64,000 nucleotides of DNA from Dehalococcoidia bacterium (lineage in GTDB: Bacteria; Chloroflexota; Dehalococcoidia; Plut-88900), in NCBI GenBank assembly GCA_965197645.1, contig OZ240219.1:2112001-2176000 (forward strand). The letters are read 5' to 3'. The notes beneath the pieces are model-generated. The model searched no databases. It was not told where the DNA came from and worked only from the letters and a program-made list of their open reading frames with translations. Positions within the stretch are counted from its first letter, which is position 1; each line of letters starts with the position of its first letter. Shown here piece after piece: positions 23,578-29,202 of the stretch. Both the position numbers and the translations under genes were made by a program.

Positions 23578-24321
23578 ATGCTCGCCGTCTCCACCAGGCT
23601 CCCCGATACCAGGTCCGGCAATCCGCCGGTGGTCCTTGTCCACGGCGCCGCCAACTCGGCCATCGTGTGGAGGCACTGGCAGGAGGAGCTGGCCGAACGC
23701 GGCTGGGCATCCTACGCCCTGGACTTGAGGGGCCACGGGAGAAGCGCGGTCATCGACCTTTCGACCACGACGATGGAGGATTACGCCACCGATATACAAA
23801 GAGTGACGACCATGTTGGACAGACCTCCCGTCGTCCTGGGCTGGAGCATGGGCGGCCTGGTCGCCATGCTGTACGCCTCGTGCGGGAAGGCCGCTGCCTG
23901 TGTGGCCATCGCGCCCAGTGTCCCGGCCCGCAGGACCGATCCCTCGGTCAGGTTGCGAGCGGGCGAGTACGGCGCTGCCGCCTATCGCATCACTAAACGC
24001 GGCCCCGAAGACCAGCCCGCCATGCCAGATTTAGACCTGGATGAGCGCAAGCTCGCCCTGGACTCCCTCAGCAACGAGTCTCGCTTCGCTCGGGACCAGA
24101 GGAAGGCCGGAATAGTCATCGAATCGATACCCTGTCCTCTGCTCCTGGTCACCGGCACCGAGGACACCGACTGGCCCGAGGAGATGTTCCGGGACCTGTG
24201 GCTCGAGCCGGACCGGTACAGCGTGCAGGGCGCATCCCATTGGGGGCTGGTGTTGAATCGCCGGGTCCTGCCTTCCACGGTCGAAAAGGTCACGGCCTGG
24301 GTATCAGAGAGTCTGCGGTAA
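23578..24321 (+). CDS. Alpha/beta hydrolase (tandem paralog 1)
   Basis: VHG, DLRGHG, GWSMGG and GASHWGL motifs. Confidence 0.88.
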   Translation: MLAVSTRLPDTRSGNPPVVLVHGAANSAIVWRHWQEELAERGWASYALDLRGHGRSAVIDLSTTTMEDYATDIQRVTTMLDRPPVVLGWSMGGLVAMLYASCGKAAACVAIAPSVPARRTDPSVRLRAGEYGAAAYRITKRGPEDQPAMPDLDLDERKLALDSLSNESRFARDQRKAGIVIESIPCPLLLVTGTEDTDWPEEMFRDLWLEPDRYSVQGASHWGLVLNRRVLPSTVEKVTAWVSESLR

Positions 24322-25068
24322 ATGCCCGTGCTCGCCGTATCCACCAGACTTTCGGCAGCCGACTCCCCGAACCCTCCCATCGTCCTTGTCCCCGGCTCTT
24401 TCGCCTCCGCCCTGATCTGGACCTATTGGCAGGACGAGCTGGCCAGGCTGGGCTGGATATCCCACGCCATCGATCTACGGGGCCACGGCCTTAGCACACC
24501 GATGGACCTATCGAAAACGTCGGTGGCCGATTACGTCTCCGACGTCCGTCGCGTCGTCGAGACCCTGGCCAGGCCACCGGTGATGATGGGCTGGAGCATG
24601 GGAGGCCTGCTATCGATGATGTACTCCAGCACCTATGGCGCCGCGGCGTGCATAGGCTTGGCGCCGACGCCGCCGGCCAACAGGCCGAACACCACTTTCG
24701 TCATCGAGGACGGCGAGTATCCCGCCTACATACCCGGAATGACCGACCGGCCTGTCGAAGACCAACCGTCTCTACCCGACCTGGACCTGGAAGAGAGGCA
24801 GACGGCCCTAGATGCGATGTCCAGGGAGTCCCGGTATGCCATGGGGGAGAGGATGGCCGGCGTGGTGGTGAAGTCGGTCCCCTGCCCTCTGCTGATCGCC
24901 ACGGGCTCCGAGGATGTGACCTGGCCCAAAGACGCTGTCGTAGCCGGATGGCTCAACCCAGATCGCCACGTTATCGAAGGAGCGTCCCACTGGGGCTTAC
25001 CCCTGAACCGGTCGGCCATTTCCGCCGCCGCGCCGGTCATATCCCGGTGGATCCTGGAGAACCTCTAG
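24322..25068 (+). CDS. Alpha/beta hydrolase (tandem paralog 2)
   Basis: DLRGHG, GWSMGG and GASHWGL motifs; abuts paralog 1 (TAA-ATG). Confidence 0.88.
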   Translation: MPVLAVSTRLSAADSPNPPIVLVPGSFASALIWTYWQDELARLGWISHAIDLRGHGLSTPMDLSKTSVADYVSDVRRVVETLARPPVMMGWSMGGLLSMMYSSTYGAAACIGLAPTPPANRPNTTFVIEDGEYPAYIPGMTDRPVEDQPSLPDLDLEERQTALDAMSRESRYAMGERMAGVVVKSVPCPLLIATGSEDVTWPKDAVVAGWLNPDRHVIEGASHWGLPLNRSAISAAAPVISRWILENL

Positions 25069-26309
25069 CCCACCAACTTTTTGACCAGGGCCACCTCATC
25101 CTCTCTTGTGACGGTTTCCCCATCCAGCCGGGCACGGCGAAGCTCCTTCAACATCTTTCCCAACTCCGGCCCACGAGGTACGCCCAGGTCCTGCAGGTCT
25201 CGACCGTTGAGGTGGGGAGCGATCGCTCTCAGCTCGGTTGTATAGAGCGCAATGCGCTCGGCCACCAGGGGAGACCCCGAGGCCACCCGGAACGCCGTCA
25301 ACGCATCCTCCGATATTTTATCCAGCACATCAGCCAACCGGCTTCGCTTTAGATCGAGCATCTCCAGCTCTTGCCGCCGGCTCTTCAGCGTCATCGCGTC
25401 GGCTACGCCTTGGACCTGGTCTTTGGTGAACCGGTACGTGTGAAGGAACCGCCGGCTGTCTTCGTCCGAGCAACGGTACAGCAGAATGGACAGGTACACG
25501 ACGATGGAGGGACGCCCCCCGGTCGACCTGGCCTCTCGGTACCTCTCCGCTAGCCACCCGTCGGCCTTCAGCGCCCCGTCCAGCCTTCCCAGCACCCCCA
25601 ACTCGTCTGCCCTGATCAGAGCCAGCTCCGGCTGCTCCTCTCGCAGTACCAGCTCCAGCTCGTGACGGTTCCGGTCTACGCCCACCGATCCTATGGAAGG
25701 TAGGGCGCTCCTCAGAAGCCCTTCCGTTTTCGGTTCCAATCGAAATCCCAGCCGCTGTTCATAGCGAATGGCCCGCATGATCCGGGTCGGGTCGTCGGTG
25801 AAGCTGGCATCATGGAGGACCCTGATCAGCCCCTCGTTCAGATCTCCCCTGCCGTTGTAGGGGTCCAGGAGCCGGCCCGCCTCGGGTGGGCTGAGCTGCA
25901 GAGCGATGGCGTTTACGGTGAAGTCCCGGCGGGCCATATCGGTATCGATGGAGCCCGGCCTGACCAGTGGCAGGATCCCGGGTCTTGAGTACTCTTCCCA
26001 CCGGGCCGTCGTCAGATCTACGGAGATGTCGTCTTTCGTGTAGGTGGCCGTACCGAACCTATCGTGGGTGACGACCCGCCCGCCGTCAGCTTCGGCTAGG
26101 CCCTGGGCCACCGCCAGTGCGTCGCCCTCCACGGCCAGGTCCAGGTCACCACTTTCCCGCTCCATTAGCAGGTCCCGCACCCGGCCGCCCACCAGGTAGA
26201 GAGAATGGCCCTGCTTCGAGCATATCTCTCCCGCCAGGCGCACGACCTCCCAAAGTTCGGGGGACAGAGACCTTTGGAGCGCATCGATGGGACCGGTGTT
26301 AGGAGACAA
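25065..26309 (-). CDS. CCA tRNA nucleotidyltransferase / poly(A) polymerase family
   Basis: VGGRVRD, DLD, RRDFTVNA and DDPTRIMRA motifs. Confidence 0.9.
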   Translation of the reverse strand: MSPNTGPIDALQRSLSPELWEVVRLAGEICSKQGHSLYLVGGRVRDLLMERESGDLDLAVEGDALAVAQGLAEADGGRVVTHDRFGTATYTKDDISVDLTTARWEEYSRPGILPLVRPGSIDTDMARRDFTVNAIALQLSPPEAGRLLDPYNGRGDLNEGLIRVLHDASFTDDPTRIMRAIRYEQRLGFRLEPKTEGLLRSALPSIGSVGVDRNRHELELVLREEQPELALIRADELGVLGRLDGALKADGWLAERYREARSTGGRPSIVVYLSILLYRCSDEDSRRFLHTYRFTKDQVQGVADAMTLKSRRQELEMLDLKRSRLADVLDKISEDALTAFRVASGSPLVAERIALYTTELRAIAPHLNGRDLQDLGVPRGPELGKMLKELRRARLDGETVTREDEVALVKKLVG

Positions 26310-26380: not shown

Positions 26381-26408
26381 TTGCTTTTGGGCACTCCGGT
26401 GCTAAAAT
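26381..26408 (+). promoter_or_regulatory. Promoter for the DsbA-like gene
   Basis: TTGCTT-16 nt-TAAAAT with extended TG. Confidence 0.5.
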
Positions 26409-26440
26409 GGGTATATTCCACAAAAGAAAGGCGGAAGCAT

Positions 26441-27061
26441 ATGGTCGAAAAGATAGATATGACCGTTTACTACGACTACCTCTGACCCTACGTCCGCGTT
26501 GCAGCAGTCTGGCTGCAAGACGTCAAGGAAGCCTACGAAGGCGAGATGAACATCACGTGGAAGAACTTCCCGTTGGAGCAGGTCAACAGCAAGGAAGGCG
26601 AAGACTGGAAGCTGTGGGAGCAGCCCGAGTCTTACGCCAGCCGCGGCCTCCTGGCCCTGCGTGCAGGGGAAGCCGCCAAGAAGCAGGGCATGGATGCCTT
26701 CAACAAGTTCCACGTCATCCTCCTGAACGCTCGCCACGTGGACCGCAAAGCCATCGACAACATGGACATCCTCGTGGATGCCGCCACCAAGGCGGGGCTG
26801 GACGTCGATAGGTTCAAAGAGGACATCAAGGACCCCGAGGCCCTGAAGACCATCGCCGCCGACTATGAGGAGGCGAAGAGCAAGCACGGCGTGTTCGGCG
26901 TGCCAACCATCGTCTCAGAGGACGGCAACGCCGCCTTCGTCAAGATGATGCCGCCTCCGGCTTCAGACAAGGCCCTGGAAGTATTCGAAGGGGTCTTCGA
27001 CGTCGTGTCCACGAAACCTGACGTGCTGGAGATCAAGCGACCCGAACCTCCCGAGGCCTAG
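26441..27061 (+). CDS. DsbA-like thioredoxin-fold selenoprotein (Sec at TGA 26483-26485)
   Basis: MVEKIDMTVYYDYL-U-PYVRVAAVWL is in frame with ORF 26546..27061; GVFGVPT cis-Pro loop; hairpin just downstream of the TGA. Confidence 0.85.
26491..26522 (+). promoter_or_regulatory. Putative bacterial SECIS element
   Basis: Stem TTGCAGC/GCTGCAA, loop AGTCTG starting 20 nt after the UGA, lower stem CGTC/GACG. Confidence 0.72.
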
Positions 27062-27081
27062 ACTGCGGCGTTCCGGTTCCA

Positions 27082-27780
27082 ATGCCCGACCTGGATGAGC
27101 TTCAGCGGATCATCGGGGTCGAATTTGCCGACCCGTCGCTTCTGAGCAAGGCTCTAACTCACAGCTCTTTTCTGAACGAGAATCCAGCACCGGGCCTGGA
27201 ACACAACGAACGGCTGGAGTTCCTGGGTGACGCCGTCATTGGCTACGTCGTCGCCCAGGAGCTTTACCTCCGCTTCCCGCACCTCTCCGAAGGTGAACTC
27301 ACCGAGCTTCGTGCCGGCATGGTCCGAGCCGAGTCCCTCGCTGAAATCGCCCTCGACTTGCACCTCGGCGAGTACCTGACCCTCGGTCGGGGTGAGGAGC
27401 AGGGGGGCGGCAGGGACCGTACCGGCAACCTGGGGAGAGCCCTGGAGGCATTGGTCGGCGCTCTTCTCCTCGATCAGGGAATGGAGACGACCCGCTCCTT
27501 CCTACTCAAACAGCTGGAAAGTCGCCTGGGAAGCGCCGTCAAAGAGGGCCCGAAGAAAGACTACAAGTCCCAGCTCCAGGAGTACACCCAGCTCCGATGG
27601 AAGATTCAACCCGACTACGTGACCGTCGAGGATCCGTCGCCCGATAACACTCCGCAGTTCTCCGCCGAGGTCATGGTACAAGGCGAGGTGATGGGCCGCG
27701 GTACCGGTCCCACCAAGCGCACCGCCCAGCGACACGCCGCCGAGGAGGCGCTCCAATGCCTCCAACTACGAGATACATGA
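27082..27780 (+). CDS. rnc: Ribonuclease III
   Basis: HNERLEFLGDAV signature plus a dsRBD (DYKSQLQE). Confidence 0.96.
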   Translation: MPDLDELQRIIGVEFADPSLLSKALTHSSFLNENPAPGLEHNERLEFLGDAVIGYVVAQELYLRFPHLSEGELTELRAGMVRAESLAEIALDLHLGEYLTLGRGEEQGGGRDRTGNLGRALEALVGALLLDQGMETTRSFLLKQLESRLGSAVKEGPKKDYKSQLQEYTQLRWKIQPDYVTVEDPSPDNTPQFSAEVMVQGEVMGRGTGPTKRTAQRHAAEEALQCLQLRDT

Positions 27781-28266: not shown

Positions 28267-29202
28267 ATGCCTTTCCTGAAGCTCCTCAAGCGGGAGAAGA
28301 AGACCGAAGAAGCTGTCCAGCGCACCAAACGCGGCTGGTTCAATCGTGTCACCGGTATCCTGCGCAGCCCCAAGATCGACCAGGAGTTCTGGGACGATCT
28401 GGAGGAGCTGCTGATCTCCGCCGACGTTGGTGTCACCACCACCACCAGGCTCTCCGAGGCCCTCCAGGAACGCCTGAAGAAGGACCGGTTGCGGAACGCC
28501 GATGAGCTTCAGCAGGTCCTGCGAGAGCAGATGATCCACATCCTGAGCTCTCCCGGCAACAACGGTGGGTTCCTGGCTTCCACCGATGCTCAACCCGCGA
28601 TCGTACTCGTAGTTGGGGTCAACGGAGGAGGAAAGACCACATCCATCGCCAAGCTCGCCCACGCCCTCAAAGAGGATGACAAAAAGGTGGTCATCGCCGC
28701 GGCCGATACCTTCCGTGCCGCGGCCATGGAGCAGCTGCAGGTATGGGGCAAGCGGCTCGAGGTCGAGATTATAGCCCATCAGCCGGGCGCCGATCCCGGG
28801 GCCGTCGTGTTCGATGCCCTCCACAGTGCGAAGAGCCGCGCCGCGGACGTAGTCCTCATTGATACCGCCGGCCGGCTTCACACCAAGTACAATCTCATGG
28901 AAGAGTTGAAGAAGATCAACCGGGTCATTAAACGCTTCGACCCCACCGCCCCCCACGAGGTATTGCTGACCATGGATGCCGTTACCGGCCAGAACGGCCT
29001 CTATCAGGCCAAGGCTTTCGTCGAGGCCGTCAATGTGACCGGGATATTTCTGTCCAAGCTGGACGGCACGGCCAAAGGCGGCATTCTCCTGAACATCTGC
29101 GAAGAGCTGAACATCCCCATCCACTTCATCGGTACCGGAGAAGGCCCCGAAGACATGGCCCCCTTCGAGCCCAAGACCTTCGTCAACGCCCTCTTCGATT
29201 AG
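28267..29202 (+). CDS. ftsY: SRP receptor FtsY
   Basis: GVNGGGKTT, DTFRAAA, DTAGR and KLDGTAKGG motifs. Confidence 0.97.
   Translation: MPFLKLLKREKKTEEAVQRTKRGWFNRVTGILRSPKIDQEFWDDLEELLISADVGVTTTTRLSEALQERLKKDRLRNADELQQVLREQMIHILSSPGNNGGFLASTDAQPAIVLVVGVNGGGKTTSIAKLAHALKEDDKKVVIAAADTFRAAAMEQLQVWGKRLEVEIIAHQPGADPGAVVFDALHSAKSRAADVVLIDTAGRLHTKYNLMEELKKINRVIKRFDPTAPHEVLLTMDAVTGQNGLYQAKAFVEAVNVTGIFLSKLDGTAKGGILLNICEELNIPIHFIGTGEGPEDMAPFEPKTFVNALFD

What the first reader, a model, noticed from the sequence alone, without database searches (positions are those of the whole stretch)
26441..27061. Hidden DsbA-fold selenoprotein with a single-Sec active site (UPYV) and an adjacent SECIS-like hairpin
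Seen: ATG 26441 follows a promoter-like sequence and a purine-rich tract and reads MVEKIDMTVYYDYL-TGA-PYVRVAAVWLQD, in frame with the 171-aa ORF the track starts at 26546. A 7-bp stem (TTGCAGC/GCTGCAA) with loop AGTCTG starts its loop 20 nt after the TGA. Known: DsbA/FrnE-type proteins have D-x-x-C-P-[YWF] at this position and a cis-Pro GVPT loop, which is present here; bacterial SECIS hairpins sit at this distance with a G early in the loop. Inference: TGA encodes selenocysteine. The protein has no Cys at all (UxxV), implying a single-selenol mechanism. It lies 20 bp upstream of rnc and is probably co-transcribed, which is an unusual context.
Basis: partly seen in the sequence, partly recalled or inferred. 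Interest (0 to 1): 0.85.

Follow-up and report, generated by a model that had tools for sequence, protein, structure and literature searches.

The report
Single-selenocysteine DsbA-like protein upstream of rnc
This is a real selenoprotein gene that gene callers cut short: a cytoplasmic DsbA-fold protein with one selenocysteine and no cysteine, from a family already listed as a selenoprotein in ocean metagenomes in 2008 and still of unknown function.

Summary
ATG 26441 to TAG 27061 is one 206-codon frame broken only by TGA 26483-26485.

- **Fold:** Pfam DSBA matches residues 8-163, across the TGA.
- **Homologues:** the TGA codon aligns with an invariant Cys in 33 of 33 full-length Cys homologues. 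Of the 80 best related genomic loci, 66 carry TGA at that codon and 14 carry TGC or TGT; none carries anything else.
- **Sec machinery:** the genome has selA, selB, a TGA-containing selD and tRNA-Sec.
- **Hairpin:** it fits the published bacterial SECIS model and is kept with compensatory changes. In this sequence alone it is not statistically unusual.
- **Active site:** the whole family is single-Cys/Sec (U/C-P-x-V/A). Its closest solved structure is the single-Cys DR2335 of Deinococcus.
- **Context:** rnc follows directly in 46 of 80 loci.
- **Novelty:** the 2008 GOS selenoproteome already lists "DsbA 3, UxxV", so this is a new member of a known kind.
- **Function:** it is untested. I infer a mono-selenol redox mechanism that needs an external thiol.

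The parts
26388..26417 (+). Promoter-like site TGGGCA-18 nt-TATATT in the 131-nt divergent spacer between the CCA-adding-enzyme gene and the selenoprotein gene
   Evidence: Consensus scan: 9 of 12 matches; 1 site found against 0.4 expected in shuffles. Weak evidence; not tested further.
26421..26440 (+). Purine-rich tract (…AAAGAAAGGCGGAAGCA…) just before the ATG; likely ribosome-binding region
   Evidence: Read directly. The start at 26441 agrees with the N-termini of relatives, where M lies 14 residues before U.
26441..27061 (+). Full coding sequence of the DsbA-like selenoprotein: 206 codons including one UGA = Sec, then stop TAG
   Evidence: Translation. Pfam DSBA PF01323 E 5.4e-16, residues 8-163. 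AlphaFold2 model pLDDT 94.1, pTM 0.90. Gene callers report only the 171-aa piece from 26546 (P0002).
26483..26485 (+). UGA codon read as selenocysteine (U15), at the N-cap of helix alpha-1 in the motif D-Y-L-U-P-Y-V
   Evidence: Aligns with an invariant Cys in 33 of 33 homologues. 66 of 80 related loci have TGA here and 14 have TGC or TGT. The model puts a helix at 16-31 and a strand at 5-11.
26490..26523 (+). SECIS-like hairpin: lower stem 26490-26494/26519-26523, 4-nt bulge, upper stem 26499-26505/26512-26518, loop AGUCUG 26506-26511
   Evidence: Fold. Fits the published bSECIS constraints: loop 3-9 nt, stem 4-16 bp, G in the first two loop bases, 16-37 nt after UGA (PMC13188914 section 5). 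Conservation and covariation.
26897..26908 (+). Codons for G153-V154-P155-T156, the thioredoxin-fold cis-Pro loop
   Evidence: G153, P155 and T156 are invariant in A1. The loop precedes strand 156-159 in the model.
27062..27081 (+). 20-nt spacer between the selenoprotein stop and the rnc start; no terminator-like site
   Evidence: the only terminator-like hit is on the minus strand, inside rnc.
27082..27780 (+). rnc (RNase III), ending in TGA used as a stop
   Evidence: Pfam Ribonucleas_3_3 7e-35, Ribonuclease_3 8e-24, dsrm 2e-15. Directly downstream of the family gene in 46 of 80 loci.
25065..26309 (-). Divergently transcribed CCA-adding / poly(A) polymerase family gene (context)
   Evidence: Pfam PolyA_pol 1.4e-25. 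Found upstream on the opposite strand in many Dehalococcoidia loci.

Best explanation
Window 26441-27061 encodes a 206-residue cytoplasmic selenoprotein with a DsbA-type thioredoxin fold. UGA 26483-26485 is decoded as selenocysteine by the genome's own SelA/SelB/SelD/tRNA-Sec system. Decoding is directed by the hairpin at 26490-26523 inside the coding sequence.

Sec15 sits at the N-cap of helix alpha-1, opposite the cis-Pro loop (V154-P155-T156). This is the position of the nucleophilic Cys of DsbA, FrnE and Rv2466c. Neither this protein nor its family has a second active-site Cys: the motif is U/C-P-[YFW]-[VA].

The chemistry must therefore be mono-selenol (inferred). The selenolate would attack a disulfide, a sulfenic acid or an S-thiolated substrate. 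The resulting selenenyl-sulfide would be resolved by an external thiol, most likely a thioredoxin-type protein, because marker genes for glutathione and bacillithiol synthesis were not found.

The gene belongs to the family catalogued as "DsbA 3 (UxxV)" in ocean metagenomes. Its closest solved structure is the single-Cys protein DR2335 of Deinococcus radiodurans. It is probably transcribed together with rnc.

- **Shown:** the frame, fold, Cys/Sec alignment, conservation and Sec machinery.
- **Inferred:** the catalytic mechanism, the reductant, the substrate and co-transcription.
For: **Frame and fold**
- One frame with a single TGA.
- Pfam DSBA spans the TGA.
- AF2 model pLDDT 94.1, with a strand at 5-11 and a helix at 16-31.

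**Sec position**
- Cys is invariant in 33 of 33 full-length homologues at 41-50% identity.
- TGA sits at the same codon in 17 of 17 orthologous loci from relatives; one further locus has TGC.
- Among the 80 best genome-contig loci, 66 have TGA and 14 have TGC or TGT.

**Machinery**
- selA 547.7 bits, selB 346.8 bits, selD 379.7 bits with its own in-frame TGA, and tRNA-Sec with anticodon tca.
- TGA is otherwise a stop: rnc ends in TGA.

**Hairpin**
- It meets the published bSECIS constraints.
- A qualifying hairpin is present in 66 of 66 Sec loci. Median hairpin energy is -6.8 in Sec forms against -2.8 kcal/mol in Cys forms.
- The four inner pairs all form in 49 of 67 distinct Sec rows against 2 of 14 Cys rows.
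- Among close relatives, 89.3% of cells are paired against at most 50.6% when the partners are slid, with 8 double-change cells; 0 of 500 shuffles reach this.

**Not a sequencing error**
- Contigs from two studies span the region with 0-1 differences.
- Two RNA-library contigs from a third study cover the TGA unchanged.

**Family**
- The profile hits DR2335 (7DK9) at E 4.2e-27 over its full length, with its Cys aligned to U15.
- Foldseek TM 0.86 to DR2335.
- The GOS table lists "DsbA 3, pfam01323, UxxV".

**Context**
- rnc follows in 46 of 80 loci, mostly 1-33 nt downstream.
Against: - **The hairpin alone is not significant.** Its z-score is -1.47. 1003 of 5000 synonymous recodings of the same peptide fold as stably. 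The peptide A-A-V-W-L itself tends to encode the stem.
- **The wider covariation signal is modest.** On 73 Sec sequences, 67.5% of cells pair against 54.1% at slide -3. Pairs with double changes are not above shuffles (177 of 500).
- **The Sec/Cys hairpin contrast is not phylogenetically independent.** 13 of 14 Cys forms lie in one clade.
- **No direct evidence of selenium incorporation.**
- **No activity data for any family member.** PMC8945050 (passages read) states that no experimental data exist for DR_2335.
- **The external reductant is a guess.** The absence of BshC, GshB and GCS2 hits is in a genome estimated 94.5% complete, and other thiols were not searched.
- **RNA-library contigs do not bridge the gene-rnc junction** with enough sequence on both sides.
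Confidence: 0.85

Rival explanations
1. The TGA is a true stop. The locus is a decayed or N-terminally shortened gene, and the real product is the 171-aa protein from ATG 26546, as gene callers predict.
For: Public protein collections hold only the shortened forms for the closest relatives: 162-197 aa covering 78-90% of the query. The hairpin is not significant on its own.
Against: The 171-aa product would lack strand beta-1, the active-site turn and most of helix alpha-1. The 42 nt before the TGA are conserved at protein level in 17 of 17 orthologues, and the motif D-[YF]-x-U-P is kept in 66 loci down to about 44% identity. Cys-form homologues are full length. A stop kept at one codon across this divergence is not decay.
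Confidence: 0.03
2. The TGA is a sequencing or assembly error for TGC/TGT.
For: None found.
Against: Contigs of runs from two studies cover the stretch with 0 and 1 differences, neither at the TGA. RNA-library contigs of a third study also show no change there; one of the DNA runs may be the window's own source. TGA sits at the same codon in 66 other genomes.
Confidence: 0.01
3. UGA is read here as another residue (Trp, Gly or Cys) by near-cognate read-through or a changed genetic code, not as Sec.
For: Open frames under TGA = sense cannot by themselves tell which residue is inserted.
Against: rnc next door ends in TGA, so TGA is a normal stop in this genome. A complete Sec system is present, including a selenoprotein SelD. 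The aligned residue in homologues is always Cys. A SECIS-type hairpin sits at the canonical distance.
Confidence: 0.02
4. It is a selenoprotein but not a thiol-disulfide oxidoreductase. It could work like the kappa-class GST / HCCA-isomerase branch of the DsbA fold, as a small-thiol-dependent transferase or isomerase. Or it could act as a non-catalytic adaptor like YjbH.
For: Foldseek lists YjbH (6GHO), kappa GST (1R4W, 1YZX) and HCCA isomerase (2IMD) at TM 0.63-0.66. Those enzymes carry a single catalytic residue at this position (Ser; recalled, not tested). Family-specific invariant motifs (L-E-Q-V-N, W-K-x-W-E, E-x-K-R at the C-terminus) suggest a defined ligand pocket.
Against: These matches are far weaker than DR2335 (TM 0.86). 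Profile E-values are only 0.0045-3e-6. No glutathione or bacillithiol synthesis markers were found. Use of Sec in place of Cys is typical of redox-active sites (PMC1794560, title and abstract).
Confidence: 0.12

Closest known systems
"DsbA 3 (UxxV)" selenoprotein family of the GOS ocean metagenome (Zhang & Gladyshev 2008, PMC2398784)
   Same: Pfam PF01323, Sec in a UxxV motif, no resolving Cys. The Dataset S1 sequences under "#DsbA 3 UXXV" show the same F-D-F-R-U-P-F-V start and the same later motifs as the SAR202/Dehalococcoidia loci found here. I compared them by eye.
   Different: The paper gives only a table row (5 Sec sequences in 3 samples, 72 Cys homologues) and sequences. It gives no structure, context or function. 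I did not align the paper's sequences with a tool. The window's protein is from a different subclade (U-P-Y-V-R-V).
DR2335 of Deinococcus radiodurans (PDB 7DK9; C24S mutant 7DKA)
   Same: Full-length profile match at E 4.2e-27, with its single Cys aligned to U15. Foldseek TM 0.86, rmsd 2.3 Å. Same D-x-x-C-P-Y motif, the same L-x-Q-x-N motif and the same C-terminal basic R/K-R-P motif. Cytoplasmic, single conserved Cys (PMC8945050, passages read).
   Different: Cys, not Sec. 26% identity. Has two insertions relative to this family (alignment). Function also unknown.
DsbA-like selenoproteins with UxxC ("DsbA 1" / form 1; FrnE-like)
   Same: Same Pfam family and the same Sec position. A U-P-W-C member lies elsewhere in this same genome (L132:308-961) and in relatives.
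   Different: They keep the resolving Cys and so can form an intramolecular selenenyl-sulfide. They are only about 30-34% identical to this protein.
Rv2466c (mycothiol-dependent nitroreductase, Pfam PF22234)
   Same: Pfam Rv2466c-like scores 29.5 bits against a cut-off of 27, over residues 14-200. Foldseek TM 0.67-0.73. Cytoplasmic DsbA fold.
   Different: Rv2466c has a CPWC dithiol motif (recalled) and works with mycothiol. Identity is 18-20%.
E. coli-type periplasmic DsbA
   Same: Thioredoxin fold with a helical insertion, and a cis-Pro loop.
   Different: No signal peptide is visible (the N-terminus runs straight into beta-1), there is no CxxC, and no DsbB partner was examined. Foldseek TM is about 0.57-0.61.

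Membership tests
Bacterial selenoprotein (SelB/SECIS-dependent UGA decoding) | In-frame UGA at a position where homologues have Cys | tested here: met
   33 of 33 Cys in A1. 66 TGA and 14 TGC/TGT among 80 loci.
Bacterial selenoprotein (SelB/SECIS-dependent UGA decoding) | Stem-loop just downstream that fits the bSECIS model (loop 3-9 nt, stem 4-16 bp, G in the first two loop bases, 16-37 nt from UGA, MFE <= -7.5) | tested here: met
   7-bp stem, loop AGUCUG, spacing 20 nt, MFE -18.2 (model). Conserved in 66 of 66 Sec loci. Not significant on this sequence alone. bSECISearch itself was not run.
Bacterial selenoprotein (SelB/SECIS-dependent UGA decoding) | selA, selB, selD and tRNA-Sec in the genome | tested here: met
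   All protein markers score over the curated cut-offs. tRNA-Sec scores 66.4 bits and ARAGORN calls anticodon tca.
Bacterial selenoprotein (SelB/SECIS-dependent UGA decoding) | Selenium found in the protein | not testable with these tools
   Needs 75Se labelling or mass spectrometry.
DsbA-like thioredoxin-fold family (Pfam PF01323) | Profile match over the gathering score, and the fold | tested here: met
   59.4 bits against a cut-off of 25.6. The top 50 Foldseek matches are DsbA-fold proteins.
DsbA-like thioredoxin-fold family (Pfam PF01323) | CxxC dithiol active site | tested here: not met
   The motif is U-P-Y-V and there is no Cys anywhere in the protein. 33 of 33 Cys homologues have V or A at the fourth position. 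Of the 80 loci, 79 likewise have V or A there; one (L097) has C.
DsbA-like thioredoxin-fold family (Pfam PF01323) | cis-Pro loop opposite the active site | tested here: met
   G153, P155 and T156 are invariant and precede strand 156-159. The cis conformation itself was not checked.
GOS "DsbA 3 (UxxV)" selenoprotein family | PF01323 plus Sec in a UxxV motif, with sequence likeness to the published members | tested here: inconclusive
   Motif and Pfam family are met. Likeness to the Dataset S1 sequences was judged by eye only, not aligned with a tool.
DR2335-like single-Cys DsbA-like proteins | Full-length homology, with the single conserved Cys at the active-site position | tested here: met
   E 4.2e-27, profile positions 7-203 on chain residues 22-229, Cys aligned. 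TM 0.86.
FrnE subfamily | CP(W/F)C motif, often with a C-terminal CxxxxC | tested here: not met
   No second Cys and no C-terminal Cys pair. The profile matches FrnE only over positions 79-161. The motif definition is from PMC8945050.
Kappa GST / HCCA isomerase | Glutathione-dependent, with a catalytic Ser at the active-site position | tested here: not met
   Sec/Cys, not Ser. Weak profile hits (E 3.2e-6 to 0.0051). No GshB or GCS2 in the genome. The Ser feature is recalled.
"DsbA-like protein form 2 (DxxUP)" of the 2026 review PMC13188914 | PF01323 with a DxxUP motif; example MDP6049977.1 | not testable with these tools
   The motif D-Y-L-U-P fits. [quoted passage not shown]

The most novel reading that the evidence does not exclude
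The tight pairing of this mono-selenol DsbA-fold gene with rnc is conserved: 46 of 80 loci, down to about 44% protein identity, with gaps mostly 1-33 nt. The most novel reading is that this reflects a functional link. The selenoprotein could act as a redox switch or repair factor for the RNA-processing or tRNA-maturation machinery. Alternatively, it could carry out a so far undescribed one-selenol chemistry on a small-molecule substrate bound by the family's invariant L-E-Q-V-N / W-K-x-W-E / E-x-K-R residues.
Probability: 0.1. Interest if true: 0.6.

Novelty: new member of a known kind. Interest (0 to 1): 0.3.

Why it matters
- **Annotation:** the gene and most of its relatives sit in public protein collections as N-terminally cut fragments that lack the active site. 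Reading UGA as Sec restores a complete enzyme.
- **Family:** this is a large family that is mostly Sec-form among the close relatives sampled (66 of 80), found in Dehalococcoidia, SAR202 and Thermomicrobiales. No function is known for it. It now has a structural anchor (DR2335) and a conserved partner gene (rnc) to guide experiments.
- **Limits:** it does not open a new category. DsbA-like selenoproteins, including a UxxV form, have been catalogued since 2005-2008.

Tried and rejected
- **Hairpin significance on the window alone:** dinucleotide shuffles and synonymous-codon resampling both failed to show that it is unusual. I therefore rely on comparative evidence only.
- **NCBIfam:** no family scored over its cut-off. 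The only hit was a weak partial one to NF041057 (29.6 bits against 190).
- **Function from neighbours outside the rnc clade:** Thermomicrobiales/Chloroflexia loci show ABC-F ATPase, then CoaE, then this gene, then an M50/CBS peptidase or an HhH-GPD glycosylase (47 chosen ORFs from 17 loci without rnc). All are housekeeping genes. No redox partner emerged.
- **Small-thiol cofactors:** BshC, GshB and GCS2 were not found in the own genome, which is 94.5% complete. Mycothiol, ergothioneine, CoA-disulfide reductase and thioredoxin reductase were not searched.
- **Literature:**
  - "7DK9" gave 3 unrelated papers.
  - "DR2335/DR_2335" gave 2 reviews with no functional data.
  - "selenoprotein + SAR202 + selenocysteine" gave 0 papers.
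  - The supplements of PMC5029168 do not split DsbA-like forms.
- **RNA-library contigs:** they cover the gene but do not bridge into rnc with 31 or more letters on both sides. They show neither transcription nor co-transcription.
- **First regexes:** the pattern missed 14 of 80 loci and the follow-up printed nothing. Both were fixed.
- **Earlier findings:** a search of this scan's earlier notes returned nothing.
- **Not run:** complex prediction, because I make no binding claim.

Full report
**1. Observation**

The sequence is as described.
- ATG 26441 opens a frame that reads MVEKIDMTVYYDYL, then TGA (26483-26485), then PYVRVAAVWLQD.
- The frame runs without another stop to TAG 27059-27061. 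That is 206 codons, and the 171-aa ORF from 26546 is only its tail.
- No Cys codon occurs in the frame.
- The stem TTGCAGC (26499-26505) pairs with GCTGCAA (26512-26518) around the loop AGTCTG. The loop starts 20 nt after the TGA.
- ViennaRNA adds a 5-bp lower stem (26490-26494 with 26519-26523), giving -18.2 kcal/mol.
- rnc starts 20 nt after the stop and is confirmed by Pfam.
- A promoter-like site lies at 26388-26417.

**2. Is the TGA selenocysteine?**

Five lines of evidence agree.

*(a) The fold spans the TGA.*
- Pfam DSBA matches residues 8-163 (E 5.4e-16).
- An AlphaFold2 model built on 34 sequences is confident (pLDDT 94.1, pTM 0.90). It places residue 15 between strand 5-11 and helix 16-31, the classic thioredoxin-fold active-site position.

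*(b) Homologues carry Cys at that position.*
- In 33 full-length homologues at 41-50% identity, the aligned residue is Cys in 33 of 33. D12 and P16 are also invariant.

*(c) The TGA is conserved.*
- A search of 61 genomes (60 relatives plus the own genome) found matches in 31.
- All 11 same-family genomes and 5 further same-class genomes have a full-length match with exactly one in-frame TGA.
- I confirmed that it is the same codon in 17 of 17 loci. One further locus (L038) has TGC.
- A scan of one genome per species found 488 relatives. Of the best 80 loci, 66 carry TGA and 14 carry TGC or TGT. No other residue occurs.
- On a tree built with the active-site column masked, the Sec/Cys state needs only 3 changes. 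13 of 14 Cys forms lie in one Thermomicrobiales clade.

*(d) The genome can decode Sec.*
- It encodes selA (547.7 bits), selB (346.8 bits), selD (379.7 bits, itself with one in-frame TGA) and a tRNA-Sec with anticodon tca.
- rnc next door ends in TGA, so TGA is an ordinary stop in this genome.

*(e) It is not a sequencing error.*
- Contigs from runs of two studies span the stretch with 0 and 1 differences, neither at the TGA.
- Two contigs from RNA libraries of a third study cover the TGA unchanged.
- One DNA run may be the window's own source.

**3. The hairpin**

It meets every constraint of the published bacterial SECIS model: loop 3-9 nt, upper stem 4-16 bp, G in the first two loop bases followed by G or U, 16-37 nt after UGA, and MFE <= -7.5 (PMC13188914, section 5 and Fig. 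2 legend, read).

Taken alone it is not statistically remarkable.
- Its z-score is -1.47, and 18 of 200 shuffles fold as well.
- 1003 of 5000 synonymous recodings of the same peptide fold as stably.
- The stem is largely spelled by the codons for A-A-V-W-L.

The comparative evidence is better.
- All 66 Sec loci have a qualifying hairpin, mostly 19-22 nt after the UGA.
- Median hairpin energy is -6.8 kcal/mol in Sec forms against -2.8 in the 14 Cys forms (Mann-Whitney p = 4e-5, not corrected for relatedness).
- The four inner pairs all form in 49 of 67 distinct Sec rows against 2 of 14 Cys rows.
- Among 14 distinct close relatives, 89.3% of cells pair, against at most 50.6% when partners are slid. 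Eight cells have compensatory double changes, reached by 0 of 500 shuffles.
- On all 73 Sec sequences the signal is weaker: 67.5% paired against 54.1% at slide -3. Some subclades use a 5-bp stem or a register shifted by one base.
- Cys forms also vary more in the encoded peptide. This fits a double constraint on the Sec forms.

**4. What kind of protein**

The whole family is single-Cys/Sec. The motif is [UC]-P-[YFWHN]-[VA] in 33 of 33 Cys homologues and in 79 of the 80 loci. Only L097 has U-P-Y-C.

The N-terminus runs straight into strand beta-1, so I read the protein as cytoplasmic. This is an inference; no signal-peptide tool was run.

Matches to solved structures:
- A family profile matches PDB 7DK9/7DKA at E 4.2e-27 over the full length, with the chain's Cys on U15.
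- Foldseek names that entry as DsbA-like protein DR2335 of Deinococcus radiodurans, with its C24S mutant, at TM 0.86.
- Next come YjbH (TM 0.59-0.63), Rv2466c (TM 0.67-0.73), kappa GST and HCCA isomerase (TM about 0.63-0.66), and FrnE (TM 0.62-0.65).
- A review of Deinococcus thiol reductases describes DR_2335 as a cytoplasmic DsbA-like protein with a single conserved Cys and no experimental data (PMC8945050, passages read).

Family-specific invariant residues are L45-E46-Q47-V48-N49, W56-K57, W59-E60, H99 and E197-x-K199-R200. DR2335 shares a looser version of these motifs: L-x-Q-x-N and a C-terminal I-R-R-P (alignment).

**5. Mechanism (inferred)**

With one selenol and no partner Cys, an intramolecular selenenyl-sulfide is impossible. 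The likely cycle is:
1. The selenolate attacks a disulfide, a sulfenate or an S-thiolated substrate.
2. An external thiol resolves the intermolecular selenenyl-sulfide.

Marker genes for bacillithiol (BshC) and glutathione (GshB, GCS2) were not found in the own genome, which is 94.5% complete. I therefore favour a thioredoxin-type protein reductant. This is a guess: other thiols were not searched.

A transferase or isomerase role like kappa GST / HCCA isomerase, or an adaptor role like YjbH, remains possible. I give that about 0.12.

**6. Context**

rnc follows the gene directly in 46 of 80 loci, all of them Sec forms from Dehalococcoidia or SAR202. Extrapolated gaps are 1-33 nt in 40 of the 46. 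A further 30 loci lack rnc downstream, and 4 hold too little DNA to tell.

An SRP-receptor-like gene often follows rnc. This is my reading of window 28267-29202, not tested against a family library. A CCA-adding-enzyme gene often lies upstream on the other strand.

In Thermomicrobiales and Chloroflexia, the gene instead follows an ABC-F ATPase and dephospho-CoA kinase.

No terminator-like site separates the gene from rnc in the window. Co-transcription is plausible but not shown.

**7. Comparison with what is known**

- DsbA-like selenoproteins with UxxC were reported from the Sargasso Sea (PMC1088965, Tables 2-3, passages read).
- They rank among the 20 commonest bacterial selenoprotein families: 41 organisms (PMC5029168, Table 3).
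- The GOS study lists three forms, including [quoted passage not shown] (PMC2398784, table passages).
- Its Dataset S1 gives sequences under "#DsbA 3 UXXV". By eye they share the active-site region and later motifs with the SAR202/Dehalococcoidia loci found here. I did not align them with a tool.
- A 2026 review lists "DsbA-like protein form 2 … DxxUP" (PMC13188914, table passages). Whether that is the same family could not be checked.
- A U-P-W-C paralogue lies elsewhere in this genome.

**8. Verdict**

- The thing itself is an ordinary, though routinely mis-annotated, member of an already catalogued selenoprotein family of unknown function.
- This analysis adds three things: the link to the DR2335 structure, the finding that 66 of the 80 closest relatives are Sec forms, and the conserved pairing with rnc.
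- Interest is 0.3.

Noticed in passing
G000:C1:532307-532960 (L132:308-961, + strand), outside the window: A second DsbA-family selenoprotein in the same genome: 217 codons reading …IYSDYL-U-PWC…, so it has the UxxC (FrnE-like) motif. Similar U-P-W-C genes occur in relatives (L039-L042, L046, L049, L050).
   Followed up: partly
G000:C1:941844-942767 (L009), outside the window: The genome's selD has one in-frame TGA, so SelD is itself probably a selenoprotein here.
   Followed up: no
window 23578-24321 and 24322-25068, + strand: Two abutting, clearly similar ORFs of 247 and 248 aa. Both carry a G-W-S-M-G-G nucleophile-elbow-like motif, which suggests a tandem duplicate of an alpha/beta-hydrolase-type gene. 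The stop of the first touches the start of the second.
   Followed up: no
L062, L065, L067, L076, L084, L088, L090, L093, L099, L121, L122 (Thermomicrobiales / Chloroflexia loci): The family gene there sits in a different conserved order. An ABC-F type ATPase lies upstream, with dephospho-CoA kinase (CoaE) between it and the gene wherever that ORF was scanned (L065, L076, L084, L093, L121, L122). An M50/CBS peptidase or an HhH-GPD glycosylase follows (no downstream family was called in L062). The CoaE neighbour is the only hint toward a CoA-type thiol.
   Followed up: partly
L097:2543-2590: One family member reads U-P-Y-C instead of U-P-Y-V. This is a lone member with a possible resolving Cys inside an otherwise single-Sec clade.
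   Followed up: no
L085 and L106: Sec forms of the family also occur on contigs labelled as a Deltaproteobacteria MAG and a Nitrospinota MAG. Both sit on long branches that join each other in the tree. This could be horizontal transfer or mis-binning; it was not resolved.
   Followed up: no
window 26432-27211: Contigs from metatranscriptome libraries labelled sponge metagenome hold 95-100% identical pieces of the gene. Near-identical DNA contigs occur in runs of two other studies.
   Followed up: partly
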